The notes under the pieces were generated by a model. The model was not told the DNA's origin, did not search any database, and saw nothing but the letters and a program-made list of their open reading frames with translations. Below, one piece after another: positions 9,483 through 64,000 of a stretch of DNA of 64,000 nt; position 1 is the stretch's first letter, and each line of letters starts with the position of its first letter. The DNA is from Haliotis rufescens (Eukaryota): NCBI RefSeq assembly GCF_023055435.1, contig NW_025963802.1:7998001-8062000 (forward strand). Direction: 5' to 3'. A program made the translations under genes and the position numbers.

Positions 9483-9782
9483 CCATCGTGTCTTGCGAAA
9501 GCACTCTCCTACCCAGAGTTCCCAGCGCGTGACACCTTCGTTACACTCTCGGTAACAAAGAGAGCTCCGCGAACGGACTATCGCTGTGAGGAGCTTGCCG
9601 CGAACGGACTATCGCTGTGAGGAGCTTGGCGAAACATATAAACAGTGACGGAGAAGGAAGAAGTGTGGAGGAACGCGGGTTAGGCGTTTATATCCTGATG
9701 ACGGTGAATGAAACCGCTGACTTTGGAGGAGTACTACCGTCAAACGAACTTCACGTTTATAACTACACAGAAAACGACGAAA

Positions 9783-12700
9783 ATGGGACATTCTCTCTGT
9801 AAACTTGCAACACTCGGGTGGAAGAAAGATATGAAAATTATTATATTTGGTGCGTAGATCTACTGTTTTACATACTTAGAGCCAGAGACCATATATGGTC
9901 TCTGTTAGAACATTCATTTCAGATGGCACAACTACCGATGCCCCTAGTTCATGAGTAGCCGAGCATGTGGAGCAACAGTAGTCGGCGAGATCTGATAGTC
10001 AAGAAAATGTTTTCTTGACTGGCCCAATGCCAGGTATCGCGGCTAGCTCAACAGTAGGGTCAAGTTTTGACGATTTAGACCCCGGGCCCTTTCTCCATAG
10101 ATCATGACAGTTGACAGTTCTGTGTTTTATTTAAATTTGTTACAGAAAAATATATGATTTAATTTGACGTTATGAGAAACTTTCAGTTGGAATGGTTAGT
10201 GTGCTGAGTTTAATGTTCATAGTGCTAATATTTGCGTTACCCTACTGTATTTCCTTTGTATATCGAGCCTTTATATATAAAGCCCCTGCTTACGTTGATT
10301 TTTTTAAATTGATAGCCACTGCTAAGGATTAAATTAACCTTATTTACGTGCCAATGCGATATTTGAATTTCCAATGTTACAAAATGTATCCAGTTCTGCA
10401 TAGTTGTACCTAACCATGATGATACTTGCACTTTATGAGCTGAATCTGAGGGTAAGTTTTTTAAATGAGCTACGCCCTCCAAACAAGAGCTGCGTGAACA
10501 ATAGCCAGAGCCGTGATTGTGTCTGCATGACTAGCTGAGAGCTCTGTTGGGACCCAATTGACATGCAAGACAATAACATACTGACTAGGCTACTGTTGAG
10601 TGAGTGAGTTTGGTTTTACGCCGCTTTTAGCAATATTCCAGCAATATCACGGCGGGGGACATCAGAAATGGGCTTCACACATTGCACCCATGTCGGGAAT
10701 CGAACCCGGGTCTTCGGCGTGACGAGCGAACGCTTTAACCACTAGGCTACCCGACCGCCCCAGGCTACTGTTGAACCTCATCACTCATGTCAACTACAGG
10801 CAATGATTTCTCCCCACTGCATTTGAATACCATACATTTGACCAAACTCAGCTAATCCCTATCCCTTCTTGTCACAGATGTGAACAGAATAAGGGTAGGA
10901 TTGCTAATTTTATTTTAGAGCCAACCTCTAATTGGCTGCTTTTCACTACTGTATAACCATGTTCCCTTGGAATTCTTCAAAGCCGGGGACATTACCATGG
11001 TTACAAATAGAACTAGAAGTCACCTCATTGAAGATCAACATGAGGCTGTAGAATAGAAAAGTCCATTCCATGCATCATGTGCATATCTGCTTTGGTCTGT
11101 CATCTTTAACATGTTCAACACAATCTTCTTTCTTGCATTAGGTCTTGATGCTGCTGGAAAAACAACCATTCTGTACGTCCTAACGCAAGGAGAAGTGGTG
11201 ACAACCATTCCTACAATTGGTATGTCTGTATGTTTGGATATGTTTTTTGTGCCCCGACCTAAAAGGGCGGGTGGGTATATTGTTATACCAAGGAATTTCC
11301 TCCCTCCTTCTGAGGACATTTTTGTGTGTGACCTATAACCATGATAACTTAAAAACTACTTCATAGATTTTTTTCAAATGTGGTGAACACCTTTTATACC
11401 TATAGGAGAGGTGCAGCTTTTAATTCATTTTTTTACTTGCACATATATGTGATCCATAACTAGAAAACTGTTGCATGGATTATTTTCAAATTTAGGGACC
11501 AGTTTCCATACTAATCATGCTAATAGAAGAGATGCAGTGCAAAGTTTAATTTTGATATGTGTATTTTCTGAAAAAAATATGATTCTTTACCAGTGCTTGC
11601 ATGTCTTGAAATTAGAATATTTTTTTAACTTTTACATTTATGCAAGCTATAACTGAAAAAATACTTCACGGATTCTTTTAAATTGGGGATACAGTTTCTA
11701 TGCCATTAGGAGAGGTGCAGTGCAAAGTTTGATTTCATGTTTTGAACTTAGAAGTACATCATGTATGTTGGAATCGAAGTCGAGGGTATTAGTGAGCCCT
11801 GCTCAGTTTTTGTCTTGTTTGTTTAGTATTTTGATAGGTAAGTAGCAGCAGTGATATTAACTTGACTTTTGTCTCAGAATATCAACACTCTAACAGTAGG
11901 CAAGTACAAGGCTATGTTTATTGTGTAAATATAATCATGATAATGCTATGTAGATACGTTATGACTTTGGTTATGTTGGAGAGTGAGTTTGGTTCAATCA
12001 TGTTAATGTTTAATGTTTAATGCCACACTCAGATTTATTCTAGCTATATGACAGTGGTCTGTAAATCATCCAGTCTGGACCTGACAATCCAGTGATTGAT
12101 ATCATGAGCATTGATCCACGCAATTGAGACACGATGACATGCAGCAACCAAGTCAGTGAGTCTGATTACCCAGGTCCTTCAGTCGCCTCTTACAACAAGC
12201 ATGGGTTGCTGAAGACCAATTCAAATCTTCACGGGTCATGATGACTCTGGGTCAGAAAAGCAGATCCCAACAGAGCATATACACAGCATGTTCTATTGTG
12301 AGGGAGTTGGGTTTAACGCCGCTATTAACAGTATTCCAGTTATATCACGGCGTGTCAGCTTAATGTGGGAGGAAAGCCCGAAGTGATGCAGGTCTCAGAC
12401 GTTTACCACTTCGGTGAAACCCAGAGCACAGGTATGGTGCTGACAAAGCTATAAACATAATCGGGGCGAATTGGGATTCGAACCCACAATCCTAGGTTTC
12501 TTGCATGCCCAAGGGACGTAACTCTGCACAGCGAATCGCAGCGCCTTAGACGACTGGGCCACCCGTGCCCCCTGTTCTAGTGTGACGCCCATGTTATCTT
12601 GTACATATTGTGTGTTGACATGATCAGTGATGATAGGTATTAGTGCTATTTTTTGCATGTCATGTAAGAACCCATGACATAACCATGCAAATTTATACAC

Positions 12701-15700
12701 TGTGTTTTATTTCAGGTTTTAATGTGGAGCATTTTACACATAAGAATATCAGAATAGTGGCGTGGGATGTTGGCGGAAGGGACAAAGCTGTAAGTAGTTT
12801 TAATAACATCGCTCTGGACAATTGTCAAACACATTTACCATGTAAAAAGAGTTAAAAAATTGCATGTTTAGGGCTTTTCACCAGTTCAGGAATGTGGATT
12901 GTTGAATGAATTAGGTTTTCACTGTAATCCATTTTGACAAGGCAGTTGTTTGTTTCCTTGCCTAAAGTGAAAGACTTGATGGTTTCACTGTTTAGGCTAC
13001 TGATTTCTGATAGGGCTGGGACGAGTCCTGATTTACTACCTAGGTACCCGATCCCCTACTACCCGACCCTACCCTACCTGGGTACCCACTGCAGGTCTCA
13101 AGAGTTGAGAACAAAATGTCTGATTGGGAAATGTTTTACCGCAGCCCTGGGCAAAACTCTTTAGGTACATGTATCAAACGATCAGATCGTGCGTACACTG
13201 AAGTTAACTGAAGCTTTATCTGTAGTCAGACATGTACAAGTCAAAAGGAATGTCTGCATCGTAAGACGGAAAGGCGAACTTTAGCATGTTTAGCAACTTG
13301 TAGTTTAACCACTGAGCTATAATGAGTTTTTGTCATTAAACAATATATCAGGTGACTAGCCACAGGTCTGGGTAGTACTGTGGGTACCCGGGTCCTACTC
13401 AGGACCCACCCGAGTACCCGAGTTTCCCGTCCCAACCCTAATTTCTGAAATGAATAGACAATGACAATAACAGTCCCTCTGTGCAGTTTATGTTTATTCC
13501 TGCATCACAATGGCTTTTGAGACAAGGAATTCTGAAGCAATTATTAGATCATGGCTGAATACTATAGAATATGAACTGGGTATATAAAACAATGAAAATA
13601 AATATTGGGTAAGATATAATTTTGGCCACATTATATTTTCCCAAATATTGAAAGAAGAAATGTTCAGCATTAAACTTGTGTTACAATGGTTACATATGAG
13701 ATGTCTGATGCAGCTTGTCCAAACTGTACATCGTACAAGTACTGAAAAGGTTTGCGCCATGAAATTATTGTGAGTGGCTAACAATTGCCTTAACTTAACC
13801 TGGAGAGATTTTTGACACCCTGATAAGATTGACAAAGGACAAAGCTACTTATAACTTTTGCATTTCATTTTTGTAAGTAGGAAGGGGCTTGGTTCAGTTT
13901 CAGTTTATTTCTCTGAAAAACGACAAATGATGGTACAAGAGTATATATATGCATACACACAAAATCGAGGCATACGAATGTTCACTCGGTGTACATGTAA
14001 TATATAAAAAATAAAGACCATGTTAGTCCAACATCTTCTTTTTATCAGTTTCAGACATAGTACTTTGACTTTCTCATGACAGCTCTTCAGTGTAACTGAC
14101 AATGACATATGAATGATGTCATACTTATGACAACGTCATAAATTACAAATGTGACGTGATAATGTATTTACACACTCCAGCGAAGACACCACATAATATA
14201 ACAATTGTAGAGAGACATTTGAAGTAAAATCTACAGTATATTGTAAAGTAGATTGTGAGGTATTTCTACAAATACTGTAGATTTTAACCCTTGCCATCGG
14301 TGAAATGATAACCCAAGGTCAGTCAGTAATTTTTTAACTATAGGCACATGTGTGGTTGTAGTTGACAAGGGAGGTTGGAGTAGGGTTTATTCAACAGTAA
14401 AGAACTGATTGGCTTATGTCTGGACTAGTCGGTGACAGCTAAGTGAACTTTCCTGATTAAACTTTTGACAATGAGGACAATGTGTAATTGAGTATATTAT
14501 TTGATAATTCATGCACTGGCTGGTTTGACAATGTGTAGAAGTAAACAAAAGAAATATGCATCTTTACATTATTTGTTTCTTGTTGGTCTGAAAAATAAAT
14601 GCATCATAAAACTATTGCAAGTGTGTGTCATCCCCACATTTTGCAATACTGTCTTGCTCGCAAAACTGTCCAGATTTACCATGTTTACAGTATCAAGTAT
14701 AGGGGTGTCGCGATAAATTGAAATATCGATTAATTGCTGTTGGTAAGCACTTAAAGTCAATAAATCAATTGTTAAATCAGTTTCCAATCAATAGTATCGA
14801 TTTCAGTTAGGAATATTGATAATTTCTATTGTACATGCAATGCTGTTCAAATTTGTTTTTCTTTTGATCATGAGTGCTAGTAATTTACACATGATAATGT
14901 TGAAGTTTCTTTTTCTTAAATTATTTATAGGGTAAAGAAAAAACAAGTCAGTCATATCTCAAACTTAACTTTTTATTTGTTGTTATGGTTATCACATTCA
15001 AAGGAAACTACAGTTCCAAGGTTTAATTCAACTCTAAAATCCATCTAAAATGATACACTGAAAACTATCGATATTTATCGCAATAGTTGTTTGGAATATC
15101 AATAGTTATCGCAATAGTTTCTTTCAATATCAATAGTTATCGCATTAGTGATTTCCAGACCAATAGTCACCCCTAATCAAGTATGGTCCTTGTCTGAAGA
15201 TACCAAAGAAGCAGTAGTTTGTTCAGTCCTCCTCACTTCCTCTTTTCCAGCGGAGCTTGTACCGACACTACTTCCCTGGAGCATCAGCACTCATGTTTGT
15301 CATAGACAGCACTGATCAGGATAGGCTTGAAGAGATGACTGATGAGGTGAAGAGATTGGTGATGGACCCAGAGCTGGGAGAGGCTGTGATTCTGCTCCTG
15401 GCCAACAAGCAGGACATGGGCTCGGCCATGAGTGTGGAGGAGATCAAGGAAAAAATGAACTACAACAAATTATGTGAGCAAAGACCTTCTGGGAAAAGTG
15501 AGTGTGTTTCTGTTTTAGTTTTAGTCAAGATCTGCAGGCAATGTCAGCTTAGCTTATGTCATGCGTCTCTGTTGGTTGTCATATAAGCAGTATGAGCTTG
15601 TGTCATCGGTCTGTCTGTCAGTTGTCATACAAGCAGTGTGAGCTTATGGCATGGGTCTGTTTGGCTGTTGTCATACAAGCAGTATGAGCTTGTGTCATCG

Positions 15701-17017
15701 GTCTGTCTGTCCGTTGTCATACAAGCAGTGTGAGCTTATGTCATGGGTCTGTTTGTCTGTTGTCATACAAGCAGTGTAAGCTTATGTCATTGGTCTGTTT
15801 GTCCGTTGTCATACAAGCAGTATGAGCTTATGTCATGGGTCTGTTTGTCCGTTGTCATACAAGCAGTGTAAGCTTATGTCATTGGTCTGTCTGTCCGTTG
15901 TCATACAAGCAGTGTGGGGTGATGTCATTGGTATGACATTATGTCATCGGTCTAAGCCCGTTTGTTGTGATACAAGCAGTATGATGTCATGGGCCATGAA
16001 TGAGAGTGGCACCACAGTGTTCTGTTTACTATGACGTCGCTGCATTGTGACCTTGTTGGCTGACATCATAGCTCTGAGACGTCTTCATTGGAATGTCGCT
16101 ACATATTAGATATTGGGGGAAGTATGTATTAAATGCACACATGTTCATCACTTTGCCAAAACATGTGCACACTAACTGAGAAATAAGGTTTTACTCATAA
16201 GCTGTCAAAATATCTACTGTGAGTGTTTGCTCTACATGCCTCGATTGTAAATTGTGAACTTTGAGTGAATTTTTCCCCCTGGTGACCCAAGGTAGAGAAG
16301 CTTTTGGCACTGTGAACCTATTCTTCCCCAGAATCTAGGCTGGTCATTGGTTTGAAATGTTAATATCGACATTAAAGTATAACGATACAGCAATCAATAA
16401 TATAATTAAATTCTGGATGTGTATATATAAAATTTATCTACATGTATGTAGATCTGCAATTAGTCAATGTAGTGCTAAATATGATCTACACTGAGCAGAT
16501 AAATGTTTAAAATTGAATATTCTGCCTTCTCATTGTCCTTCCTGTCTATAGTACAATGTACAAGTATCCACGGATACTTGGGGCCCTAGAAATCTAACTG
16601 GAATAACCATTATTAAGAGGCAAACATACTGCTTATGTCTAAGTGCTTATGACAAATAGTGATCATGACAACAATGACAATTATATCCATGCTGACTGAA
16701 TATCATATTGTGGTCAATATTGATGGAAAAGTGACATTTCTTTTTCAGAAATGAACATATTTGGATGTTCAGCAGTGACGCCTGAGGGTCAAGGTGACTT
16801 GCTTAAGGCACTGGATTGGCTGAGTGAAGAATTGGTGCCGAAGTCTGGCTACTGGTTCCAGTCCTGGTATTCATCTGAAACTGGGAAAACGAAGGACAAA
16901 ACTAATAAGGCTCCATCCCAGGAAGGCTCAGATAGTGACAAGAAACCCTGGACATTCTCATCTTATGTGAAGGGGACGATTACAACTTTCAAAAGCTTGC
17001 TGCCAAGATTGTGGTAG
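9783..17017 (+). CDS. Arf/Arl-like small GTPase 1, 244 aa; exons 9783-9849, 11142-11219, 12716-12789, 15251-15497, 16749-17017
   Basis: Joined [37 protein letters not shown]...TTIPTIGFNVE...WDVGGRDK...ANKQD...CSAV. All introns are GT-AG, total 735 nt in frame. AATAAA at 17728. Confidence 0.93.
10600..10761 (-). mobile_element. tRNA-derived SINE, family B, with 13-bp TSD aggctactgttga
   Basis: Head ggggcggtcgggtagcctagtggttaaagcg...gggttcgattccc (A/B boxes) and tail gctaaaagcggcgtaaaacc+(ctca)n. Other copies near 7882, 23375, 24615, 26690, 27008, 30758, 34252, 39625, 42598, 49038, 56550, 56815, 60134, 63098. Confidence 0.9.
11245..11820 (+). mobile_element. Probable non-autonomous Helentron/HINE-like repeat in intron 2 of gene 1
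   Basis: T-run start with a GC-rich hairpin (gccccgacc...gggcgggtggg), internal diverged repeats (..cttca.ggatt..tcaaat..gg..aggagaggtgcag), and a ..cttgtt end. A similar start lies at 18085 (ttattatccctgccacgaag...gtccgtccatccgtc). Confidence 0.45.
12300..12572 (-). mobile_element. SINE family D copy
   Basis: Near full-length match to the 8050-8297 copy. Confidence 0.8.
13011..13440. mobile_element. hAT-type MITE, 430 bp
   Basis: TIR tagggctgggacg...cgtcccaacccta with a perfect 8-bp TSD atttctga (13003-10 and 13441-48). Confidence 0.9.
14700..15175. mobile_element. hAT-type MITE, 476 bp
   Basis: TIR taggggtg...caccccta with a perfect 8-bp TSD atcaagta (14692-99 and 15176-83) and subterminal atcgat/atcgca repeats. 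Confidence 0.9.
15540..15990. repeat. About 46-bp minisatellite in intron 4 of gene 1
   Basis: gtcatacaagcag recurs at 15670, 15716, 15762, 15808 and onward. Confidence 0.9.
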
Positions 17018-18449
17018 AACTTCATATGATAAAGAACTTTCTGTGATATGACTCTGGGGATTCCAGTTTAGAATTGAAACCTACGCTGGTCGTAAGAAGT
17101 GATTAAATGGACTGATTGCTCAGGCTCGCTGACTTGATTGATAGCGTGTCAGTGTGTCCCCGATGGTGTGGATTGTTTCTCATCATATCAATTACGGGTT
17201 TGTCTGGCCCAGACCACTTACGTTATTGTTCTGCAAGTCGGGTTGAGTGATGGAGGAAGCATGTGCAAACTATGGTTTAAGGAATAAGATTTTGTGATGT
17301 ATATTTTATGTGCATTTCAGTTACTTTTACTTTCATCAATAGTGATACGTAAACATCAATTGGCCAACCTTGCTCCTTTCCTGAACGGCAAAGAAAGGTC
17401 TCTTTTCAGCAGAGTGACCTAAACATCACTGGACATAGCTTATTAATGTTTATTTGCATGCCCTCAAGCAAGACATATACGTTTGTCATACACCTTTTCG
17501 TGTATTAGAGCTATGCCAGTAGAAGCCGGAGCACCGGTCAAATTCTGAAAGTAGGCCTAATATACTTCATTGCACCGTTTCCTTGCTGTATCCAACTGTG
17601 ATATTGTTTGTTGTTTATCATGTTTATGGATACAATTGTATTTGGATATTGATTGAACATTTGTTACTGTTGTTGAATATCATATTTTATATCAGGGTGT
17701 TTTATGACATGACAACTATAACCATGTAATAAAAGAATATATTTTATGCACTGTCTTGCAGTTGTGACTAAGACTAAATCTTACTGGATCAAGTTCCTGT
17801 CATTTACCCATCAGATGACACAATATATACTACTCAAAAGAAATTAAAGAACACCTGATTCTTTCCTATTCATAGTTAATCTGTCATGGGTGTTCTTTAA
17901 CTTCAACTGAGTATATTTGTAATTATCAAAGTGTTTGTGTGTGTATTTTACTCCAAATGTTGTATTTTTTTTCTAAAAAACCCTTTTTTTTAACTGATTT
18001 CTTTTTACCTATGCCATGGTTTGTAGGAAACATAATTTGACCTTTTCTTGTGTGCAATATTGTGTGCCAAGAATACAGTTCATTATTATCCCTGCCACGA
18101 AGTGTGAGGGGGATATAGGAATGGGGGCTGTCTGTCCGTCCATCCGTCACATTTCATTTCTGGAGCATAGTGTTTAATATTTTACAGTGAAACTTTGCAT
18201 ATGTATCAAACACATGCTGAACTAGTGCCTTTTGATGTTTTGGGGTTTCTAAAAAAATAATAACCCTGTTTTCTTGTTTCTATATAGCTTAAACAATTGA
18301 GCACCTGTTTATGAATGAGCTCCTAAACATTCGTTACATTCTCGGTAGAGAGTAGACTGGTTCCTGTTTCCGTTTGTTCCTACGACAGACTGGAAAGCAG
18401 AGCAAGAGCAGCGACACCAAGCGGAGGATCCGGGAACAGAGAGCTCCGC

Positions 18450-18510
18450 CAAGCTCCTTCCCAGCGCGTGACACCTTCGTTACACACGGGCTATTGCTGT
18501 GAGGAGCTTG
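18450..18510. mobile_element. Tiny TIR element (caagctcc...ggagcttg) with 10-bp TSD agagctccgc
   Basis: TSD at 18440-49 and 18511-20. Relatives at 36589-36672 (9-bp TSD) and about 9520-9628. Confidence 0.7.
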
Positions 18511-19618
18511 AGAGCTCCGCGAAAATAAGGGAGATAACGCTTAAGTAAAGAGACAACTCTATTGAAGTGCCAGACAAAGGCACGCCGCTAGTTAAAAATA
18601 AGCAACACGTTAAATTACCTGCATGTATACTGTTCACTGTGGCACTGGATATATACTCTCACTCAGCAGCCCATTTTATCAATTATAATTTGTCTGTTGG
18701 ACACTCATTGATTTACAGACTGCTGGCATAAAATTACTATGTCTGGCGTAAATGATAACCTCACGAGCCCACTCACGTGTTGAAGGGTATAGGCAGACAG
18801 ACTTTATTCAGTATTTTAGGCCCAAAGCCAATAATACAAACAAGATGGAAAATAATTAATATTATTTACATGCTGAATAAACGGCTGGAATGCATAACAC
18901 TTTGTTCCAGGTATAGATGATTTGCTTAATTCTGATCTTTAGTCCTTGACAAAGGTATTTAATCAAACATTTAATAATATGGATATTGTCAATGAGGAGT
19001 ATATTATGACTATGCTGAATGTCATCAAATTGATTGTCGCTACACCCACTATTTTCGAGTGTTTTACGTCAATCAGCAACTCCAGCTTATCCACAACGGC
19101 CTGTAAGTAATAGAGTGAGTGAGTTAATTAGGTTTAACGCTGCTTTGAACAGTTTCCCAGTTATATCACGGCGCATCAGGTTAATGTAGGAGGAAAGCCC
19201 GAAGAAGTGCAGGTCTCAGACGTTTACCACTTTGGTGAAACCCAAGAGCACGGGTACGGTGCTGATAAACCCATAAACATAATCGGGGCAAACTGGGATT
19301 CGAACCTACAACCACGGGTTTTTTGGCGTGCCCAAGGAACACAACATTTGCACAGCGAATTGCAGCGCCTTAGACGACCGGGCCACCCGTGCCCCAATGA
19401 AAGTAAAAATCTGGCCAGGCTAAAGAGGGCCCAGTTGCTTAAAGCGATCTTAGAGTCTGTGTTAGAGTATGGGAGTTACGATCGTCATAGCACTAGGATC
19501 GCTTTGTGCAAGTGTACCCAGAGGTTGATAGAATGAGCATCAACCTACACCTTCGGGGCACGATGGCACACAGCCAGGTCACACCATCCTATCCCTATAT
19601 TCCACCTCTTGCGATAAG

Positions 19619-19887
19619 TTGGTTGGTTGGTTTGTTGTTTAACGCCGCACTCAGCAATGCTACAGCTATATGACGGCGGTCTGTAAATAATCGAGTCTGG
19701 ACCAGACAATCCAGTGATTGATATCATGAGCATCGATCCACGCAATTGGGATCGATGGCATGCTTCAACCAAGTCAGCGAGCCTGACCACCCGATCCCGT
19801 TAGTCGCCTTTTACTACAAGCACAGTCACCTTTTATGGCAAGCATGGGTTGCTGGAGACCTATTCTACCCCGGAATCTTCGCGGGTG
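19619..19887 (-). mobile_element. Retroposon family A, full-length copy with 12-bp TSD tcttgcgataag
   Basis: The TSD flanks both ends. The 5' end reads cacccgcgaagattccggggtagaatagg on the minus strand. Confidence 0.88.
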
Positions 19888-20429
19888 TCTTGCGATAAGA
19901 ACTGGCTACTAAAGGGATATCTCATCCCCACAATCCCAACAGAGAATCATGCAGGGATTTATATAACAGTGTTGTTACGCCTATATGATGACTGCTTCTT
20001 GTGTAAGACTTGATTTGTTTTCGGTGCGTGGGTCTTTGACACAGAACGCACAGACACACTGCTATCGTTTTCCGTGTGCAGATATGACCTGAAACACACT
20101 GCACTTATCTACAAACACTTTATTAAACGGATTTACCTTGGGATGTTTCAAACATATATTTTTTATTGTTTAATCAAGCATCGGATAAATTATAGAACTT
20201 TTTTTTGTATTTATTGAGAATTACCTTATTCATTGCGGTATTACTAGTGGTATTTGTTTTTGTTGTTTAACACTGCACTCCACAATATCCCAGCTGCATG
20301 GCGGTTATCATTTAAAGCACATGATGAGTATAATGTTCAATTTCTAAATTAATGAAATTGTCTGAAATGTAATATATTGATGTATCCCCTTTATAAAGAG
20401 GTTCCTGTATTTACATATCCGCGTTCAGG

Positions 20430-20492
20430 GACGACGTCGTGATTGGCCTGCCCTTCTATGACGTCACAGGCTTGACGACGTCGTCGCCCAAT
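20430..20492 (+). promoter_or_regulatory. CpG-rich promoter-like module: two CCAAT boxes around a perfect CRE (TGACGTCA, 20459-66)
   Basis: attgg near 20442, tgacgtca at 20459, palindrome gacgacgtcgtc at 20474-85, ccaat at 20488. Lies 135-200 bp upstream of ORF 20627. Confidence 0.5.
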
Positions 20493-20626
20493 GGCATTTG
20501 CCTGGAGACGACAGCATGGAACAGTCAGCAATATGGCGTTGGGCATAATTGGTCGCTTTGATGCAGTGCGCCATGTCAGTATGTCGCAATGATGCTACGA
20601 CTGTTAGACACTAGCAGACACTGAGA

Positions 20627-24227: not shown

Positions 24228-27200
24228 ATGGGGCAGTATTTCTGCAAACTTGGATGGTTTAAGAAGAAGGATGTTAGACTGCTTATGCATGGTAGGTATA
24301 ATTTCATTTCGTTTTGTTCCTATTGAGTCATTACCATATAGTTTCGTTTGGAAAATATCGAAAATATTGGTAGCTCAAGATCCGAACATGAAGCACTAGC
24401 TCCGAAGTCGAAGCTATGTACTGCTTATATGTTACTATCAGGCATACATACTTGTTTCTAAAACATGACCATACGAATTGGGATGGGATTTAAGAAATAA
24501 AATGTTCCAGTTAAACTGTAACAAATAGACTCTCATTTCGGAGAAAAAATGTTTGCCTTGACACAGTGACTTATACATTGTATAATAATAGTATCTCCAT
24601 GCTGTACCATATAGAAGGAGCGGTCTAGTGGTTAAAGCGTTCGCTCGTTACGCCGAAGACCCGGGTTCGATTCCCGACATGGGTACAATGTGTGAAGCCT
24701 ATTTCTGGTGTCCCCCGCCGTGATATTTCTGGAATATTGCAAACAGCGGCGTAAAACCATACTCACTCACTCCACTGTACCATATAGCTTTGTTTTGAGC
24801 CCCCGTTGAATTATGCGATGCTAAATATAGCAGTCCAACCAACGTAGACTCGTGTGCGCGAGAAATTCGTTGGGAAATATCTGATAAGAAGTTGATATAG
24901 TGGCGTCACTTGCCGGGGGACGCCATGGTAGCGAACAGGTCGTGCAATCGAGGGTATTTGATCTCAACAGATTAGATAAACTGACAATGTCACACGCATA
25001 GTTGGATAGCGAGTAGGTGAGTTCAAAATTAAAGTCGCATCGGCAATATAGCGACTGCAACAAGGAAGTGTATTTTCTTGAGTTGAGAACCAGATAACAC
25101 GTACAAATAAACTGTGTCTCATCTGTGTTAATTGGTCGACCTGAAACCAACCGTATAGTCAGGATTTTGTCCTCATTGAACGAGCTAAACAACAATCTAC
25201 AACTCATGATAAAACACAATTCTACAGAACTGAGTGATGTAAGAATGTTCTTTTTATGCGGGGTGATGCATGGTCAACCTTATTTACTTCCAGGACTCGA
25301 TGCTGCAGGGAAGACCACGATAATGTACATGCTTAAACTCGGAGAGGTTGTTTCAACCATTCCAACAATTGGTGAGCCTGATTGGAGATAACTTTCTGAA
25401 TTTATAAATGTTTAGAATATCCCTTGAGGGCCGACATTATATAATGAGCGAAGCATTTCAAATTCTGATTAATGGGCTTATTAATACAGAACAAGTAACT
25501 CGTAACTGTCAGCTTCCCGTCATCAATCACTGCACTGTACTGCACAGCTCATTAATAGGGTTTTGTTTGTTTGCTATATGACGGCCGTCTGTAAAAAATT
25601 GTCTGGACCAGACAATCCAGTGACTTACATCAAGAGTATCGATCTACGTAATTGGAATGCGATGACATGCATCAACAAAGGCAGCGAGTCTGACTACGCG
25701 ATCCCTTTAGTCGTCACATACGACAAGCGTAGTCGCCTTTTACGGCAAGCATGGGTTGCTGAAGACCGATTCTACCTGGGTTCTTCACGGGTCCAGCGAT
25801 AGGATGGCCTTATAAAAATATATATATTCATCAAGAATCTGACAACATCCATTCTATACTTCTGTTTGCAGTCATAAAGACCAATTCAAACCCGCATATT
25901 CATGGGTTTCATGGTAGGGAAAATTTTCGATTGAAATTTAAAATGGTTCTTAATTCACGCTTTGTTCGAAATTTCAGGTTTCAATGTGGAGACGGTTACA
26001 TACAAGAATATCAACATCACGTCCTGGGATGTGGGTGGCAGAGGCGCTATCGTGAGTTGGGATGCTCATTCCTGTATTTTTTGTTTGTCGATTGTGAAAA
26101 ATAATGTGCAGATCACTTAAAACTCATGCTTTCATTTGCATTTTTAGCTCAGGTTAACCGGAAGTCCATGTGAGCTTATGTCGTTGCTGTAATCCATGGT
26201 CCCGCCATCCAACCGTCATAAATATTTCGACCAAGCATATGATGCTTACTGTCTTTTTTTTTCAGCGCCCCCTGTATCGCCACTACTACCCCGGCACCGA
26301 CGCCGTCCTGTTCGTGGTTGACAGCAATGACCTGGAACGTATGGAGCAAGCCAGGGACGAGCTGGTACGTTTGCTTGAGGAAAAGGACCTCAAGGACACC
26401 GTCTTCCTCGTACTGGCCAACAAGCAGGACCTGCCAGGCGCCATGACAGTTCCAGAGGTTGCCAAGGCAGTGGACTTCCAGGGGATACTGAAAACTCATA
26501 GTAAGTTGAAAGAATAATATAAGTGTAAGATTGTTATAGTTTTGTAAACTTATACTTTGAAATGATCACCAGACTAGACACTTTGAACATCCTTGTACAT
26601 GTTCGGACCCATGCGTGTATGTTCATAGTGGGAACTTTGGGAACTCCCTCTCACACCTTTGACATATTGAACTATTCTAACAACGAATGAATGAATGAGT
26701 ATGGTTTTACACAATATTCCAGCTATATCACCGTGGGAGACAGAAGAAATTGGTTTCACACATTGTACCCATGTGGGCATCGAGCCCGAATTTTCAGAGT
26801 GACACTCAAACGATTTAACCAGTTGGCTGCCCCACTGCCCCTCTACCATCGATCAAAAAGTTACTGACTATCTGTACGGAGTGAATAAATGGTATAAGTC
26901 CCGAGGCTTGCGGACACATGTGTTTCTCAATCACATAAAGACATCATCTTAGTCAATCTATTGTTTGAAAGACGTGGCATAAATTTGCCTGTGACACTAT
27001 AAACATTGAGTGGGTGAGTGAGTATGGTTTTACGACGCTTTAGCAATATTCCAGCAATACGCCGGCGGACACGAAAAATGGGCCTCACACATTGTATCAA
27101 TGTGAGGAATCGAACCCGTGCATTCGGTGTGACGAGCCTAACAACTAGGCTACCCGACCGCCCCCTATAAATATTTGATGACATAACTTTTGTTGACATT

Positions 27201-27768
27201 TAAGGTGAGGTGAAATACCATGCCGCAGTTTAACATGAATACCCCACTCAGACACAGTATACTGACTCCAAACCGACCAGTCCTTGTTTTAGCCCCTTAA
27301 TGCCGAGCGCCAGACAGGGTAACAACACGTACCATCTTTTAACGTCTTTTGACGTATGACGCGGCCGGGGATCGAACCCCGGACCTTCCGCTCTCCGGGC
27401 GGACGCTCTACCACTAGACCAAGGAAGCGGTCTGACAGTTAAGCTGTTGTAGGGGAACTACAGTGCCGTGACGCTATTGTTTAGTTATGATAAATGAAAC
27501 ACATTAAAATGCTCACTATTGGCTTATTCTAGGAGCGACCATCATAGGATGCAGTGCTATCTCAGGTGAGGGACTTAATGACGCCCTGCACTGGATGTCA
27601 CAGGAATTTGCCGAGGGGAGGTCACGGCAAAGCCCGGATGCTAACCCTAGTGACCCGGAAACAGATGCAACCTCGGAGAAGAAGACTGAAAAGTCTCCCT
27701 GGTCTCTGTCCACTTACATGAAAGGAACACTGGAGTCTCTGAAAGCGTTTTTACCGAAACTAGGTTGA
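24228..27768 (+). CDS. Arf/Arl-like small GTPase 2, 228 aa; exons 24228-24291, 25294-25371, 25978-26051, 26266-26500, 27533-27768
   Basis: [33 protein letters not shown]...STIPTIGFNVETV...[17 protein letters not shown]...ANKQD...CSAISGEG...AFLPKLG. GT-AG introns, 687 nt in frame. AATAAA at 27811. Confidence 0.95.
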
Positions 27769-31126: not shown

Positions 31127-33957
<2,831 letters not shown>

Positions 33958-46536: not shown

Positions 46537-49500
46537 TAAATCACTAGATTGTCTGGTCCAGACTCGATTATATACAGACCGCCGTAATATAGCTGGAATA
46601 TTGCTGAGTGCGGCGTTAAACTACAAACAACAACATGCACAACATTAATTACTGAAGCCGAAGGGTGTATGGACGTAAGACATTATAACTGTGACAGGTT
46701 CTGTGAATATAGCATCGTGGTGTTCATGATAAAATGATGGCCAAACTCATAAAATATATAACTGAAAGATTAAACGAATAAACTCATTTGTCTCATTATT
46801 ATTTGAGCCGTGAAGATCCGCGAAAGGAATAGGTCTTCAGCAACCCATGCTTGCCGTAAGAGTCGCCTATGCTTGTCGTAAGAGGCGACTAACGGGATCG
46901 GGTGGTCAGGCCCGCTGACTTGGTTGATGCATGTCATCGAATGTCAATTGTCTGGATCGATGCTCATGATATCAGTCACTGGATTGTCTGGTCCAGACTC
47001 GATTATTTACAGACCGCCATCATATAACTTGGCTATTTCTGAGTGCGGTGTCAAACAACAAAGAAACAAAAGCTAATGTCGATATGTATTGAGGCGATTG
47101 ATCAATACACAATTTCATGATCAATTCGTGTTTGCATTCCATTCAATGCTTGTTTTAATACTGTAGCTGTAATACCGGGTAACACACCATACGGTCCTTG
47201 TTTATAGTTACGGACAGAGAAAGTAGATCTATATGTTTTCTGTCACAAATGAAGAAAAAATACATTGTTTGAATCAAACCCCAGACTCGTCTTCACTCAA
47301 CGTTATCACCTTGTCTGGTTACAGTGGATGTTGCATCTATGATCATGATTAACGTAGTAGATAACGTACTTTGACCTAGTCCAGATCAAAATCCGGTATC
47401 AATAACAGTCAACGATAAATAGCGTGACGTACGTCCGCCCAGCGTGTTTGTGCCAGGTTAACAACTCCACGGTGTGGGGTCGGTATATATATATATACTT
47501 GTACACACCAGCCTACTTGGCGATATATTCAAGTACTATTGATGAGGACCGGTCGCATTACGAAACTACGGTGTCTTGAACTTCCAGCTGACACAGGCTA
47601 CGGTCGACAGACGGAATGGGGCAATATATTAGTATGCTGCCATGGCTAAGGAAGGAAGTGGTAGTTCTCATGCATGGCACGTATATAGTACTTATTACCT
47701 TCAAGATAGTCATCGAGTCGTATTTAAAGACTGGAAGACCAAAAGTAACACGTGACCTGAATACGTCATATATTAGATTTAATATAATAATTAATTGGCC
47801 TACCTAGTTAGATCTGTGTCTTTGAAAGATTGAGCATGGGTTTATCTTTTATCCATATTCTTTTATTTTTCAAACGATAACCGCTCCGTTTAAAAAAGAA
47901 GTGACATATTTTATTTTCCAATTTCCGCATGATCACAATTTCACGCAAAAAAATGTTTAAAACTCAGATTTTACAGCCAGGTCTTGAGGAACAGAAAAAC
48001 GTTAATTAATCCACGAACAATGTTAAAAGGAATCCTATTTAGTTAGTTAAGGGACTGTAGCGTGTTCCATAATTATAAAGTAAACAATGTACCATCTTGG
48101 TCTTTCTGCTGATTTGAGTTTGAATTGCAGTGCGTGACGTTTAAAGGTATTCTACAAAGGTTTACAATTACGTACACCATTCAGACCAGTGTTTTTTAAC
48201 CAGGCCGACTTACTTAAACTTCCTTGTTTTTTACTATTGAAATAGCAGTTAGCTTATGACCTTTCATTAAAACTCTGTTTATTTCACCCGACTGATAATT
48301 ACTGCTTTAAGCAATCATTATAGCAACGATATTATATTATTGATAATTATTGTTTAACGCCGCTCTCAGCAATATTCCAGCCATATGACGGCGGTCTGTA
48401 AATAATCGAGTCTGAACCAGACAATCCAGTGATTGATCGATGAGCATCGATCCACGTAATTGCGATAGGATGACATGCATCAACCAAGTCAGCGAGACTG
48501 ACTACCCGATCCCATTAGTTGCCTTTTACGCCAAGCATAGTCACCTTTTAGGGCAAGCATGGGTTGCTTAAGACCTATTCTACCCTAGATTTTCACGGGT
48601 CTATATATTGATTACAAAAGCAGAAAATTAATGGTAAATTATGGTAATGGTTCTTGTTTTAATCTATTTTTAATGTTTCTTGAAAGAAAATGGAAAACTA
48701 CACACGGGAAATTCAGAATGACAACCCCTTTGTACAAATGCATATACATATTATCACATTACATGTATATTATAAAGATATCATTATATCATACAAATAA
48801 CCAAACGAACTTAATGTGATCATGGTCGCTTTATCCAGTCACATGTGTCCTTATATTTCAGGGCTTGATAATGCAGGGAAATCCACGCTGTGTTACCTGC
48901 TAACATCACGACTTCACGGCACACCGCCAACCCGCTGTGAGTAGGACCCTGCAATACAATGTATTTAAATGATAAATTATAAGTCTGCATTTCACTGGGG
49001 TCAGTTTAACTCTCCAAGTATACATCGAAAGAAATATGGGGCGGTTGGGTAGCCTAGTGGTTAAAAGTGTTTGCTCGTCATGCCGAAGACCCAGGTTCGA
49101 TTCCCCACATGGGTACAATGTGTGAAGCCCATTTCTGGTGTCCTCCGCCGTGATGTTGCTGGAATATTGCTAAAAGAGGCGTGAAACCACTCATCACTCA
49201 CTCACTCACTCACTCACTCACTCACTCACTCACTCACTCGAAAGAAATATTAATCTGTGAATGCCAATAAACTCACGCCAGCTTCTACAAATATAAAACT
49301 CGTGTTTTTTCGTTCATTTATATTTCACCTCATTTGTTATGTATTAACTGTATAGAACAATTCGTGTTGTGTGATGTTAATGTAGTACATACCGAAATGT
49401 GTTTGATGTTTTACGCCCCACTCAGCACTATTCCTGCTCTATGACGGCGGCCTGTAATTAATCGAGTCTGGACCAGACAATCCTGTGATTGATATCATGG

Positions 49501-49950
49501 GTATCAATCTACACTTGGGATATGATGAGTTGCATCACCCGACCATCCGATCCGTGAGTCGGGTTGCTGAAGACGACTCAAGCCCGGATCTTCACGGGTT
49601 AGATAACTGACTTATGCATCGTTTGTCGTGACTGTATGCCATGCCAGTAATAACGATGGTTTATGTTTCAGATGATGCCAAAAAGACATTAGTCTACAAC
49701 AACATCAAGTTGACACTGATTGACGGGGGGCAGAGAAGGCGTGGGGTGAGTTATGTCACATGGTTTAAGATCAACTACTCAAATAACACAGCAACACAAA
49801 TAAGCTTTGGAATTACATAAAATGTAACGGACTAAAACGGCTAGGTTCGGGATGTTTCAGTATTGCTGTACTTATACGTCGACACAATGTGTGATCTACA
49901 TTAATTTTTCAGGTCGCCTTTTAAGACAAGCAAAGCATATGACTTATTCT
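46537..49950 (+). repeat. Segmental duplication copy 1 (matches 60618-64000)
   Basis: Near-identical collinear sequence including introns and shared SINE insertions, offset about 14.08 kb. Confidence 0.95.
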
Positions 49951-51048
49951 GACCAAGAATCCATTTGATTGCCATTGGTCCTTTGCGAGTGCCTGACCGT
50001 GTGTGTTTGGTGTCCTGATGATGCTTGTTGGTATGTCGCCATCAAGTCTACGTTTGTTGTTTTCACCAAAGCGGTAAACGTCTAAGAGTTCATCGCGTCG
50101 GACATTCGTCGGACATCAAGCTGACGCATGCGCTGAAATACTATTCAACGTTGCTTTGAAACAAATAACCCCACTCCCAAGTTAGGCCTAGACACTGTAA
50201 TGCATAATGGTAGTAGCCTGTGACGGCTGGAGAGCAGCGCCCCGCCGCATCAGGCCGCTGTTCATGAGATGATTGTCCCCCATCCCCAGTATCCCCGGCA
50301 CAACTACAAACACATCGACGTCGTCCTGTTCATGGTAGACAGCAACGACCGGGACCGTATACAGGAGGCCCAGGACGAACTGAGACTTGACGCTCAGGAT
50401 GCAGCACTCAAGAACACCCCCTTCCTTGTCCTCGCCAACAAGCAGGACCTGCCGGCCGCCCTGACAGCACCAGAGGTTGCCGAGGCAATGGACTTCCAGG
50501 AAATACTCAAAGCTCACAGTAAGTTGCAGATAAAATTATTCTTATACTGTTTTCTTTCTTTTCCATCATGTTGTTTGTTTGTTGTTTAACGCCGCACTCA
50601 TAATAAACATTATTAACGTAAACATTGTCGCCGTCAGAGTACACATGGAACCACAAAGAGAGTTCGCTATATTCGTTATTTCGTCATAAGCGTGTTCGTT
50701 ATATCCATCAATTCTTTTAGATAAAATAGACAGCAAATGGCCGGGACAAAATCCTGTTCGTTATATCCGTCAATTCGTTGTAAGCGTCTTCGTTATAAAC
50801 GTAGTTTACTTTACATGCTTCCAGGGGCCAACATTATAGGATGCAGCATTCTCTCAAGGTCAGGCATTAAAGACGCCTTGGATTGGCTGACACAAGAATT
50901 CCAGAGTCCCTGTAAAGGCTCGAAAGCTTCCCCTTACAAGGAAGAGATCGATGAAGCCATAGTTGGGAAACGCGAGGCTTGGTCCATTTTTACCTACATA
51001 AGAGACATATTTGAATATTTGAAAAGATACCTACCTAAATTGAAATGA
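47616..51048 (+). CDS. Divergent Arf-like protein 4 (possible pseudo-GTPase), 220 aa; exons 47616-47676, 48862-48936, 49672-49745, 50290-50518, 50825-51048; intron 1 has a GC donor
   Basis: MGQYISMLPWLRKEVVVLMHGLDNAGKSTLCY..HGTPPTRYDAKKTLVYNNIKLTLIDGGQRRRGYPRHNY..ANKQD..CSILSRSG..RYLPKLK. 663 nt, no stop or frameshift, same intron phases as genes 1-3. Confidence 0.8.
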
Positions 51049-60617: not shown

Positions 60618-63600
60618 TAAATCACTAGATTGTCTGGTCGAGACTCGATTATATACAGACCGCGGTAATATAGCTGGAATATTGCTGAGTGCGGCGTTAA
60701 ACAACAAACAACAACATGCACAACATGGCGTGTTCTAATTTCTGAAGCCGATCGAAGGGTGTATGGACGTAAGACATTATAACTGTGACAGGTTCTGTGA
60801 ATATACCATCGTGGTGTTCATGATAAAATGATGGCCAAACTCATAAAATATATAACTGAAAGATTAAACGAATAAACTCATTTGTCTCATTATTATTTGA
60901 GCCGTGAAGATCCGGGAAAGAATAGGTCTTCAGCAACCCATGCTTGCCGTAAGAGTCGCCTATGCTTATCGTAAGAGACGACTAACGGGATCGGGTGGTC
61001 AGGCTCGCTGACTTGGTTGATGCATGTCATCGAATGTCAATTGTTTGGATCGATGCTCATGATATCAATCACTGGATTGTCTGGTCCAGACTCGATTATT
61101 TACAGACCGCCATCATATAACTTGGCTATTTCTGAGTGCGGTGTTAAACAACAAAGAAACAAAAGCTAATGTCGATATGTATTGAGGCGATTGACGTTCA
61201 CAATTGCATGATCAATTCGTGTTTGCATTCCATTCAATGCTTGTTTTTAATACTGTAGGTGTAATACCGGGTAACACACCATACGGTCCTTGTTTATAGT
61301 TACGGACGGAGAAAGTAGATCTATATGTTTTCTGCCACAAATGAAGAAAAAATACATTGTTTGAATCAAACCCCAGACTCCTCTTCACTCAACGTTATCA
61401 CCTTGTCTTGTTACAGTGTATGTTGCATCTATATGATCATGATTAACGTAGATAACGTACTTTGACCTAGTCCAGATCAAAATCCGGTATCAATAACAGT
61501 CAACGATAAATAGCGTGACGTACGTCCGCCCAGCGTGTTTGTGCCAGGTTAACAACTCCACGGTGTGGGGTCGGTATATATATATACTTGTACACACCAG
61601 CCTACTTGGCGATATATTCAAGTACTATTGATGAGGACCGGTCGCATTACGAAACTACGGTGTCTTGAACTTCCAGCTGACACAGGCTACGGTCGACAGA
61701 CGGAATGGGGCAATATATTAGTATGCTGCCATGGCTAAGGAAGGAAGTGGTAGTTCTCATGCATGGCACGTATATAGTACTTATTACCTTCAAGATAGTC
61801 ATCGAGTCGTATTTAAAGACTGGAAGACCAAAAGTAACACGTGACCTGAATACGTCACATATTAGATTTAATATAATAATTAATTGGCCTACCTAGTTAG
61901 ATCTGTGTCTTTGAAAGATTGAGCATGGGTTTATCTTTTATCCATATTTTTTTTATTTTTCAAACGATAACCGCTCCGTTTAAAAAAGAAGTGACATATT
62001 TTATTTTCCTATTTCCGCATGATCACAATTTCACGCAAAAAATGTTTAAAACTCAGATTTTACAGCCAGGTCTTGAGGAACAGAAAAACGTTAATTAATC
62101 CACGAACAATGTTAAAAGGAATCCTATTTAGTTAGTTAAGGGACTGTAGCGTGTTCCATAATTATAAAGTAAACAATGTACCATCTTGGTCTTTCTGCTG
62201 ATTTGAGTTTGAATTGCAGTGCGTGTCGTTTAAAGGTATTCTACAAAGGTTTACAATTACGTACACCATTCAGACCAGTGTTTTTTAACCAGGTCGACTT
62301 ACTTAAACTTCCTTGTTTTTTACTATTGAAATAGCAGTTAGCTTATGACCTTTCATTAAAACTCTGTTTATTTCACCCGACTGATAATTACTGCTTTAAG
62401 CAATCATTATAGCAACGATATTATATTATTGATAACAATTTCTTTGTTTAGTTCGTTTGTTGTTTAACGCCGCTCTCAGCAATATTCCAGCTATATGACG
62501 GCGGTCTGTAAATAATCGAGTCTGAATTCATTCATTCATTCATTCATGCATCAACCAAGTCAGCGAGCCTGACCACCCGCTCCCGTTAGTCGCCTTTTAC
62601 GCCAAGCATAGTCACCTTTTAGGGCAAGCCAGGGTTGCTGAAGACCTATTCTATCCGAGATCTTCACGGGTCTATATATTGATTACAAAAGCCGAAAATT
62701 AATGGTAAATTATGGTAATGGTTCTATTTTTAATGTTTCTTGAAAGAAAATGGAAAATTACACACGGGAAATTCAGAATGACAACCCCTTTGTACAAATG
62801 CATATACATATTATCACATTACATGTATATTATAAAGATATCATAATATCATACAAATAACCAAACGAACTTAATGTGATCATGGTCGCTTTATCCAGTC
62901 ACATGTGTCCTTATATTTCAGGGCTTGATAATGCAGGGAAATCCACGCTGTGTTACCTGCTAACATCACGACTTCACGGCACGCCGCCAACCCGCTGTGA
63001 GTAGGACCCTGCAATACAATGTATTTAAATGATAAATTATAAGTCTGCATTTCACTGGGGTCAGTTTAACTCTCCAAGTATACATCGAAAGAAATATGGG
63101 GCGGTCGGGTAGCCTAGTGGTTAAAAGTGTTTGCTCGTCATGCCGAAGACCCAGGTTCGATTCCCCACATGGGTACAATGTGTGAAGCCCATTTCTGGTG
63201 TCCTCTGCCGTGATGTTGCTGGAATATTGCTAAAAGCGGCGTGAAACCACACTCTCACTCACTCACTCACTCACTCACTCACTCACTCACTCACTCACTC
63301 GAAAGAAATATTAATCTGTGAATGCCAATAAACTCTCGCCAGCTTCTACAAATATAAAACTCGTGTTTTTTCGTTCATTTTTATTTCACCTCATTTGTTA
63401 TGTATTAACTGTATAGAACAATTCGTGTTGTGTGATGTTAATGTAGTACATACCGAAATTTGTTTGTTGTTTTACGCCCCACTCAGCACTATTCCAGCTC
63501 TATGGCGGCGGCCTGTAAATAATCGAGTCTGGACCAGACAATCCTGTGATTGATATCATGGGTATCAATCTACACTTGGGATATGATGACTTGCATCACC

Positions 63601-64000
63601 CGACCATCCGATCCGTGAGTCGGGTTGCTGAAGACGACTCAAGCCCGGATCTTCATGGGTTAGATAACTGAACTAAGCATCGTTGGTTGTGACTGTATGC
63701 CATGCCAGTTATAACGGCGGTTTATGTTTCAGATGATGCCAAAAAGACATTAGTCTACAACAACATCAAGTTGACACTGATTGACGGGGGGCAGAGAAGG
63801 CGTGGGGTGAGTTATGTCACATGGTTTAAGATCAACTACTCAAATAACACAGCAACACAAATAAGCTTTGGAATTACATAAAATGTAACGGACTAAAACG
63901 GCTAGGTTCGGGATGTTTCAGTATTGCTGTACTTATACGTCGACACAATGTGTGATCTACATTAATCTTCAGGTCGCCTTTTAAGACAAGCAAAGCATAT
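60618..64000 (+). repeat. Segmental duplication copy 2 (continues past the window)
   Basis: Matches 46537 onward; the junction falls inside a family A retroposon. Confidence 0.95.
61705..63806 (+). CDS. Divergent Arf-like protein 5 (duplicate of gene 4), partial; exons 61705-61765, 62922-62996, 63733-63806; rest beyond the window
   Basis: Same peptide as gene 4 exons 1-3. The only coding difference seen is a synonymous aca/acg. GC donor at 61766. Confidence 0.8.

What the first reader, a model, noticed from the sequence alone, without database searches (positions are those of the whole stretch)
16949..17017. Conserved C-terminal amphipathic helix appended to the Arf fold
Seen: after a variable polar linker, all four complete genes end in a 22-aa motif: [88 protein letters not shown]. 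Hydrophobic residues fall at 3, 6/7, 11, 14, 17/18 and 21 (helical periodicity). The motif survives even in the most divergent gene 4. Canonical Arfs stop right after helix 5. Inference: a second, nucleotide-independent membrane-targeting or tethering helix.
Basis: partly seen in the sequence, partly recalled or inferred. Interest (0 to 1): 0.7.

Follow-up and report, generated by a model that had tools for sequence, protein, structure and literature searches.

The report
Arl20 GTPases' overlooked tail helix
These abalone genes most likely belong to Arl20, a barely studied animal branch of the Arf membrane-traffic switches. They end in a conserved tail predicted to form a greasy-sided helix that likely anchors them to membranes, and they lack the amino acid that normally lets Arf proteins switch off.

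Summary
The tail is real. Window 16949-17017 ends the last exon of a five-exon Arf-family gene. RNA-like contigs from four runs splice that exon onto the GTPase core. Three more tandem paralogs, and a fifth running off the window, end in the same motif. The tail is under purifying selection (g2/g3 pN/pS 0.10) and has lipid-binding class-A helix geometry.

It is not an abalone novelty. Sequence, intron pattern and trees place the genes in Arl20, a holozoan family lost in vertebrates and named in one paper (PMC8358228). By eye, 14 of 19 Arl20 sequences seen in its supplement carry such a tail, back to sponges and Capsaspora; 18 of 19 have Arg, none Gln, at the catalytic Gln71 site. Word searches of its main text found neither trait.

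Likely mechanism (about 60%, untested): a second membrane anchor uncoupled from the nucleotide switch, backing a weakened N-terminal helix on a GTPase that ordinary ArfGAPs probably cannot turn off. Caveats: moments are moderate in g2/g3, AlphaFold confidence in the tail is low, and Arl20 monophyly is unresolved against Arl17-like proteins. The scan's notes held no similar earlier finding.

The parts
16949..17017 (+). Gene 1 C-terminal amphipathic tail (22 aa + stop)
   Evidence: in spliced contigs of 4 runs
9783..9849 (+). Gene 1 exon 1 (Met-Gly start, short N-terminal segment)
11142..11219 (+). Gene 1 exon 2 (P-loop to switch 1)
12716..12789 (+). Gene 1 exon 3 (interswitch and G3 box)
12778..12780 (+). 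Gene 1 Arg codon at the position of catalytic Gln71 of Arf1
15251..15497 (+). Gene 1 exon 4 (switch 2 to G4 box)
16749..17017 (+). Gene 1 exon 5 coding part: strand 6, helix 5, polar linker of about 37 aa, tail; the 3' UTR continues to about 17710, AATAAA-type signal at 17728
24228..27768 (+). Gene 2 (exons 24228-24291, 25294-25371, 25978-26051, 26266-26500, 27533-27768); Arg71 codon 26040-26042; matches database protein P0002 (XP_046365106.1)
27700..27768 (+). Gene 2 tail
31127..33957 (+). Gene 3 (exons 31127-31196, 31887-31964, 32480-32553, 33187-33421, 33728-33957); Arg71 codon 32542-32544; Phe51 of the aromatic triad replaced by Leu
33889..33957 (+). Gene 3 tail
47616..51048 (+). Gene 4 (presumed exon 1 47616-47676 with GC donor, then 48862-48936, 49672-49745, 50290-50518, 50825-51048); G3 glycine and aromatic triad lost, P-loop and G4 box kept: likely pseudo-GTPase
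50980..51048 (+). Gene 4 tail, the most amphipathic (muH 0.67)
61705..64000 (+). Gene 5, first three exons; a 96-98.5% identical duplicate of the gene 4 block, with exons 4-5 and an identical tail beyond the window (L004)

Best explanation
The motif is the C-terminal tail of a tandem cluster of Arf-family GTPases, most likely Arl20, and it is predicted to fold into a basic, class-A amphipathic helix that likely works as a second membrane anchor outside the nucleotide switch. Shown here: the tail is coded, spliced into transcript-like contigs of gene 1, conserved, in register with tails of Arl20-like proteins from other molluscs, sponges and amphioxus, and paired with Arg in place of catalytic Gln71. 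Inferred: the helix folds only on contact with lipid; a polar linker of 27-37 aa keeps it uncoupled from the interswitch; it makes up for a shorter, less amphipathic N-terminal helix. Also inferred: without Gln71, ordinary ArfGAP-driven hydrolysis is slow or replaced, so the proteins would stay on one membrane as long-lived GTP-loaded effector platforms rather than cycle on and off like Arf1. The abalone paralogs keep the anchor while their effector surfaces diverge.
For: Coding and transcribed. Selection: g2/g3 tail pN/pS 0.10, against 0.21-0.63 in G-domain exons and 0.86 in the linker. Tail identity between red abalone and H. asinina orthologs is 18/22, 20/22 and 18/22, against 75-78% for the G domain and 57-66% for the linker. 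The frameshifted C1 copy has Tyr-to-Asp at the most conserved tail column. A 17-column profile from 14 non-abalone proteins picks the four tails in register, scoring 13.2, 12.5, 10.9 and 7.5 (shuffle p 0.0005-0.005); controls score at most 5.0 for 41 extensions of Gln71 proteins and at most 0.7 for windows in four G domains. Across 24 aligned, non-independent rows, 137 of 146 hydrophobic residues lie within 90 degrees of one face, 13 of 13 acidic residues lie opposite, and 31 of 54 Lys/Arg flank at 90-135 degrees; net charge is +1 to +3. N-terminal residues 2-13 have mean muH 0.36 in these rows (g1 ortholog 0.26, g2 0.12) against 0.59 +/- 0.07 in 29 canonical Arfs. Both AlphaFold models give an Arf fold, a disordered linker and a terminal helix. 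Gln71 is critical for GAP-stimulated hydrolysis (PMC6724607, section read). Precedent for myristoyl plus C-terminal amphipathic helix targeting: Irgb10 (PMC3681737, passages). Family placement.
Against: No binding or localisation data exist. Per-sequence moments are moderate and not significant for g3 (p 0.07 and 0.19) or for g2 on the Eisenberg scale (p 0.08); helices inside the G domain reach equal moments. The tail has block-mean pLDDT of about 42-50 in both models, so the models do not establish the helix. A one-sided helix is equally what a protein-binding helix looks like. Three choanoflagellate Arl20s have no tail, and two more sequences are unclear. A basic residue at position 71 need not block hydrolysis: human TRIM23 has Lys there and its K458I mutant is called GTPase-dead (PMC12075517, passages; that K458 is this position is recalled). 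Trees do not resolve Arl20 as one clade: Arl17-like rows, which also carry Arg, interleave.
Confidence: 0.6

Rival explanations
1. The tail folds back onto its own G domain, into the groove that holds the N-terminal helix in Arf-GDP, and acts as a substitute autoinhibitory hasp. It would be released on GTP loading and only then bind membrane, so the anchor would be nucleotide-dependent.
For: The N-terminal helix is short and weakly amphipathic in these proteins. Helix 5 ends near the N-terminal groove (recalled structure). The N-terminal extension is autoinhibitory in Arf-GDP (PMC6724607).
Against: Neither model packs the tail with confidence. Linker length varies freely. The tail is strongest in gene 4, whose switch region is broken.
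Confidence: 0.17
2. The helix is a protein-binding element, for self-association, for hetero-assembly among the paralogs, or for docking on a receptor or effector, rather than a lipid anchor.
For: Specific residues are conserved beyond mere hydrophobicity: Tyr in 18 of 24 rows and Lys in 20 of 24. Arl4D self-associates through its C-terminal motif with lipid (PMC12974503, passages). Irgb10 needs oligomerisation plus its helix.
Against: The charge layout fits interfacial lipid binding. Overall tail identity across phyla is low for a fixed protein partner.
Confidence: 0.18
3. The tail is a lineage-specific or nearly neutral extension with no conserved role.
For: Moments are moderate in g2/g3, and there is no Pfam or Atlas match above lead level.
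Against: Purifying selection, in-register conservation from sponge to abalone, and decay in the pseudogene copy.
Confidence: 0.05

Closest known systems
Arl20 (Vargova et al. 2021, PMC8358228; e.g. Lottia Arl20a/b, Branchiostoma Arl20a/b, Oscarella, Amphimedon, Capsaspora)
   Same: Arf1-like G domain, Arg at position 71, Tyr/Phe often replacing Trp78, polar linker plus terminal amphipathic segment, three private introns plus the one shared with Arf1/Arf4. P0234 reads identical to OcaArl20 by eye; the C357 gene of this genome matches LgiArl20a through the tail.
   Different: The paper names the family from introns and phylogeny only; its main text has no hit for amphipathic, glutamine, Q71 or hydrolysis. 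Abalone has a tandem expansion to five copies with a divergent likely pseudo-GTPase (genes 4/5), plus a pseudogene.
Class I/II Arfs (Arf1, Arf4)
   Same: Fold (Foldseek best hits are Arf1/Arf6/Arl1, TM-target up to 0.89), 47-53% identity, Gly2, intact P-loop and G4 box.
   Different: They keep Gln71, have a strong N-terminal amphipathic helix, stop about 9 residues after the helix-5 Trp, and have other introns. A clade of the window genes with Arf1 is rejected (AU p 0.022).
Arl4A/C/D
   Same: Arf-like GTPases with a C-terminal membrane-contacting extension (PMC12974503, passages).
   Different: Their tail is a polybasic cluster; here it is a hydrophobic-faced helix behind a linker of 27-37 aa. 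The Arl4-like gene of this genome is separate (L027).
Arl17 and TRIM23
   Same: Arf1-derived paralogs that often lack Gln71: Arg or Cys in Arl17 sequences seen, Lys in human TRIM23.
   Different: Arl17 carries one to three copies of a C-terminal domain of about 100 residues and TRIM23 has N-terminal TRIM domains; neither is present here.
Immunity-related GTPase Irgb10 (myristoyl group plus C-terminal alpha-K helix)
   Same: Two-anchor design with a C-terminal amphipathic helix needed for targeting (PMC3681737, passages).
   Different: A different GTPase family; a functional analogy only. No immune role is shown for Arl20.

Membership tests
Arl20 | Three unique intron positions | tested here: inconclusive
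   Genes 1-4 have introns in Gly24 (phase 1), before Arg75 (phase 0) and near residue 152 (phase 1). The borders examined in this genome's Arf1-, Arf4-, TRIM23-, Arl1- and Arl19-type genes differ. The LgiArl20a-like gene on C357 shares the first two; its third lies two codons downstream. The count fits the paper, but the positions there are figure colours I could not see.
Arl20 | One intron shared with Arf1 and Arf4 | tested here: met
   Phase-1 intron in Gly50 in genes 1-3 (equivalent place in gene 4) and in the Arf1-type and Arf4-type genes L044 and L050.
Arl20 | Separation from Arf1, Arf6 and Arl19 in a G-domain tree | tested here: met
   With the position-71 column removed, canonical Arf1/Arf6/Arl19 rows fall on one side of a branch (90/77) and the window genes group with scallop proteins (85/92). 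Window genes plus Arf1 as a clade is rejected, AU p 0.022 (LG+G4 model without mixture).
Arl20 | Monophyly with reference Arl20 sequences | tested here: inconclusive
   Quick tree: window genes, molluscan proteins and OcaArl20 at SH-aLRT 96.5, with one Arl17-like intruder, amphioxus outside. Careful tree: weak, 58/86, three intruders. One clade of 16 rows is not rejected, AU p 0.167.
Arl20 | Shared sequence signature (Arg at 71, terminal helix): seen here in the paper's supplement, not stated by the paper | tested here: met
   By eye, Arg in 18 of 19 and a tail helix in 14 of 19 reference sequences seen; Arg in genes 1-3 and at the aligned column of gene 4.
Canonical Arf (class I/II) | Catalytic Gln71 | tested here: not met
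   Arg in all window genes.
Canonical Arf (class I/II) | Strong myristoylated N-terminal amphipathic helix and an end just after helix 5 | tested here: not met
   Gly2 is present but N-terminal muH is 0.12-0.46 against 0.59; extensions of 46-56 aa in genes 1-3. Myristoylation itself was not tested.
Arl17 | One to three copies of the novel C-terminal domain of about 100 residues | tested here: not met
   The proteins end within about 60 residues of helix 5; definition from PMC8358228.
Arl4 | C-terminal polybasic cluster; mostly intronless genes | tested here: not met
   Tail net charge +2 to +3 spread along a helix; four introns.
Lipid-binding class-A amphipathic helices | Hydrophobic face, Lys/Arg at the interface, acidic residues opposite (definition recalled) | tested here: met
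Lipid-binding class-A amphipathic helices | Folds on and binds lipid bilayers or monolayers | not testable with these tools
   Needs CD and flotation assays.

The most novel reading that the evidence does not exclude
Arl20 is an Arf branch, older than animals and lost in vertebrates, that has uncoupled membrane binding from the GTP switch. It holds on by a C-terminal amphipathic helix and carries an arginine where the catalytic glutamine should be, making it either permanently on or dependent on an unknown, non-ArfGAP way of hydrolysis. Abalone expanded it into a fast-diverging cluster with a switch-dead member, as defence GTPase families do.
Probability: 0.35. Interest if true: 0.72.

Novelty: new variant of a known kind. 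Interest (0 to 1): 0.52.

Why it matters
The textbook rule for Arf proteins is that GTP loading exposes an N-terminal helix, so activation and membrane binding are one event. Arl20 has a name but no described biochemistry in the library searched. If its tail is a constitutive anchor and Arg71 changes hydrolysis, it would be a natural Arf that breaks both halves of the rule, kept for over 700 million years (age recalled) in sponges, molluscs, annelids, rotifers and amphioxus. It gives the first cheap, testable handles on the family: a peptide, a deletion and one residue. It also warns that C-terminal tagging, the usual practice for Arfs, may disturb these proteins, and that database labels such as 'ARF1-like' are misleading for them.

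Tried and rejected
Tail as an abalone invention: rejected. The first search with the last exons found only 6 Haliotis proteins, but full-length profile searches found tailed relatives in other molluscs, sponges and amphioxus.
Lone tail-like hit on C68 (E 5.15): it lies in a frame running through a common repeat, with no Arf exons near; treated as chance.
Peroxisomal PTS1 signal: the PRL/PKL triplet is followed by one more residue, so it is not terminal (rule recalled). No CaaX box.
Transmembrane helix: too charged (mean hydrophobicity 0.44-0.64, net +2 to +3).
Known domain: Pfam gives nothing for the tail above chance; Atlas hits for residues 160-228 are all under 0.9.
Expression of gene 4: no contig covered its exons in 4 runs laid; these runs were chosen by gene 1, so this is no evidence either way. 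No listed holder is on record as RNA.
First IQ-TREE run timed out without support values; rerun.
A tail-region search from P0019 found only 4 close relatives.
The Gln71 proteins with extensions (41 of 70) look mostly like odd gene models and served only as negative controls.
Literature on an immune role of these genes in abalone or oyster: listings showed nothing specific; none was opened.
Earlier scan notes concerned archaeal and viral Arf-like proteins and were not used.

Full report
Setting. The window is G000:C24:7998001-8062000 of a 1.33-Gb animal genome. Database protein P0002, named Haliotis rufescens by NCBI, matches the exons of gene 2 letter for letter, so this is red abalone.

Observation. 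The motif at 16949-17017 and the three others are present as described. Genes 1-4 each have five exons with open frames, for 244, 228, 228 and 220 aa; gene 4 needs a GC donor after its presumed first exon, and two database models use other starts. The tail shares its exon with strand 6 and helix 5. In 4 of 4 runs laid, a contig joins 15497 to 16749 and continues through the tail with 0-1 differing letters; RNA status is the tool's guess, but the joins fall on exact intron borders. A fifth gene duplicates gene 4 (block identity 96-98.5%, last exon identical). A roughly 16-kb copy of the gene 1 region on C1 has a 17-base loss in exon 4 and Tyr-to-Asp in the tail.

More than chance? Single tails have moderate moments: muH 0.49, 0.48, 0.44 and 0.67 with shuffle p 0.028, 0.034, 0.072 and 0.005; on the Eisenberg scale p is 0.043, 0.083, 0.19 and 0.005. 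Selection gives the stronger evidence. Between genes 2 and 3 the tail has 10 synonymous and 3 replacement differences (pN/pS 0.10), lower than any G-domain exon compared (0.21-0.63). Against H. asinina orthologs the tail is 82-91% identical, the G domain 75-78% and the linker 57-66%. Two AlphaFold models give an Arf fold, a disordered linker and a terminal helix at low confidence; Foldseek on the first returns Arf1, Arf6 and Arl1.

What family. Profile searches returned tailed relatives in Gigantopelta, Patella, scallops, clams, mussels, cephalopods, amphioxus and sponges, and a sixth abalone gene on C357. All carry Arg where Arf1 has Gln71. In the supplement of Vargova et al. 2021 (PMC8358228) I saw 19 Arl20 sequences. 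By eye, 18 have Arg at that site (Ciona has Gly), 14 end in an amphipathic-looking segment, 3 choanoflagellate proteins have no tail, and 2 are unclear. P0234 reads identical to their Oscarella Arl20, and the C357 gene matches Lottia Arl20a through the tail. The paper defines Arl20 by three unique introns plus one shared with Arf1 and Arf4. The window genes have exactly that pattern when compared with this genome's Arf1-, Arf4-, TRIM23-, Arl1- and Arl19-type genes. I could not see the figure colours that give the paper's positions, and the last intron differs by two codons between the cluster and the C357 gene. Trees built without the position-71 column put the window genes away from Arf1/Arf6/Arl19 and among Arl20-like rows. 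A clade with Arf1 is rejected (AU p 0.022) and an Arl20 clade is not (p 0.167), but Arl17-like proteins interleave and support is weak. The careful tree used 37 of 49 rows; 12 were dropped as near-duplicates or long branches, gene 4 among them. I put Arl20 membership at about 85%.

The tail is a family trait. A profile from 14 non-abalone proteins finds the four window tails in register, three residues from the end, scoring 13.2, 12.5, 10.9 and 7.5. The C357 tail scores 13.4, the pseudogene tail 5.4, the best of 41 control extensions 5.0, and G-domain windows at most 0.7. Over 24 related rows the helix has hydrophobic residues on one face (137 of 146), all 13 acidic residues opposite, and Lys/Arg mostly at the flanks; the commonest residues are a Tyr (18 of 24) and a Lys nine places on (20 of 24). 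The N-terminal segment is shorter in most rows and less amphipathic than in canonical Arfs (0.36 against 0.59).

Mechanism. In Arfs the myristoylated N-terminal helix is autoinhibitory in the GDP state and binds membrane in the GTP state, and Gln71 is critical for GAP-stimulated hydrolysis (PMC6724607). The best reading (0.6) is that Arl20 adds a C-terminal lipid-binding helix on a flexible linker, which would hold the protein on a membrane whatever the nucleotide, while Arg71 slows or reroutes hydrolysis. All of this is inferred. Against it: a one-sided helix can bind protein, the models do not fix its position, and TRIM23 stays active with a basic residue at the same site (residue equivalence recalled). 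The rivals are a fold-back hasp (0.17), a protein-binding or oligomerising helix (0.18) and no conserved role (0.05). Gene 4 has lost the G3 glycine and the aromatic triad but keeps the P-loop, the G4 box and the strongest tail, which fits a membrane-bound decoy or scaffold.

Comparison and novelty. The closest working parallels are the polybasic tail of Arl4 (PMC12974503) and the myristoyl plus alpha-K helix design of Irgb10 (PMC3681737); neither is membership. A whole-word search for Arl20 found only the naming paper, in two versions. Its main text has no hit for amphipathic, glutamine, Q71 or hydrolysis, and its table rows seen list no extra domain or transmembrane region for six Arl20s. 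Further searches listed nothing on this tail. The library lacks most subscription journals, so 'not in print' holds only for these searches. The family is known by name; the tail and Arg71 appear undescribed; the abalone cluster is a local expansion.

What I saw of each paper. PMC8358228: passages by word search, part 1 of 2 of section 12, supplement passages, supplement part 76 and some table rows; no figures. PMC6724607: passages and section 6. PMC3681737, PMC12075517 and PMC12974503: passages only. All others: search listings only. Figure colours in the supplement and closed preprint supplements could bear on the intron test.

Verdict. Observation confirmed; interpretation partly supported and reframed. 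New variant of a known kind; interest 0.52.

Noticed in passing
window 20627-21196 (+): Intronless 189-aa ORF between genes 1 and 2, starting Met-Gly-Cys (possible myristoyl plus palmitoyl anchor), basic, with no Pfam match. Two 90% identical open copies lie elsewhere: C1:35242341-35242907 and C24:9079250-9079813.
   Followed up: partly
window 26266-26500 / 33187-33421 and 27622-27699 / 33811-33888: Genes 2 and 3 show patchy synonymous divergence (linker pS 0.06, exon 4 pS 0.17, against 0.51-0.74 in exons 2-3 and 0.62 in the tail), suggesting gene-conversion tracts that stop short of the tail.
   Followed up: partly
window about 46500-59800 against 60600 to beyond the window (L004, L005): Tandem duplication of about 14 kb at 93-98.5% identity carrying genes 4 and 5; it may be a young duplication or two haplotypes in the assembly.
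   Followed up: partly
G000:C1 about 35239800-35255100 (L014, L015): Inverted copy of window about 7600-23500 with a frameshifted gene 1 and an intact copy of the orphan ORF.
   Followed up: partly
L036:1702-8317 (G000:C357): Separate Arl20a-type gene with Ser in place of the G3 glycine as well as Arg71, and a strongly conserved Cys-containing tail shared with Lottia and cephalopods.
   Followed up: yes
G000:C101:24.9-25.3 Mb (L029-L035): Cluster of at least seven Arl19-type genes, some with stops or frameshifts; they keep Gln71 and have no tail.
   Followed up: partly
P0121, P0123, P0129, P0136, P0140, P0139: Arl17-like proteins also carry Arg (or Cys in the paper's set) at position 71 and mix with Arl20 in trees; P0139 from an unnamed record has an Arl20-like terminal helix. 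A common origin of Arl17 and Arl20 is untested.
   Followed up: partly
L045 (G000:C112): The abalone TRIM23-type gene has Gln at position 71, unlike human TRIM23.
   Followed up: no
window 38830-39558, 40782-41201, 42924-43196: Transposon-like ORFs between genes 3 and 4 (DDE transposase-like and exonuclease-like by recalled motifs).
   Followed up: no
G000:C8:0.58-0.76 Mb and C13:6.5 and 41.6 Mb: Arrays of intronless small-GTPase ORFs that match the Arf profile weakly; identity not examined.
   Followed up: no
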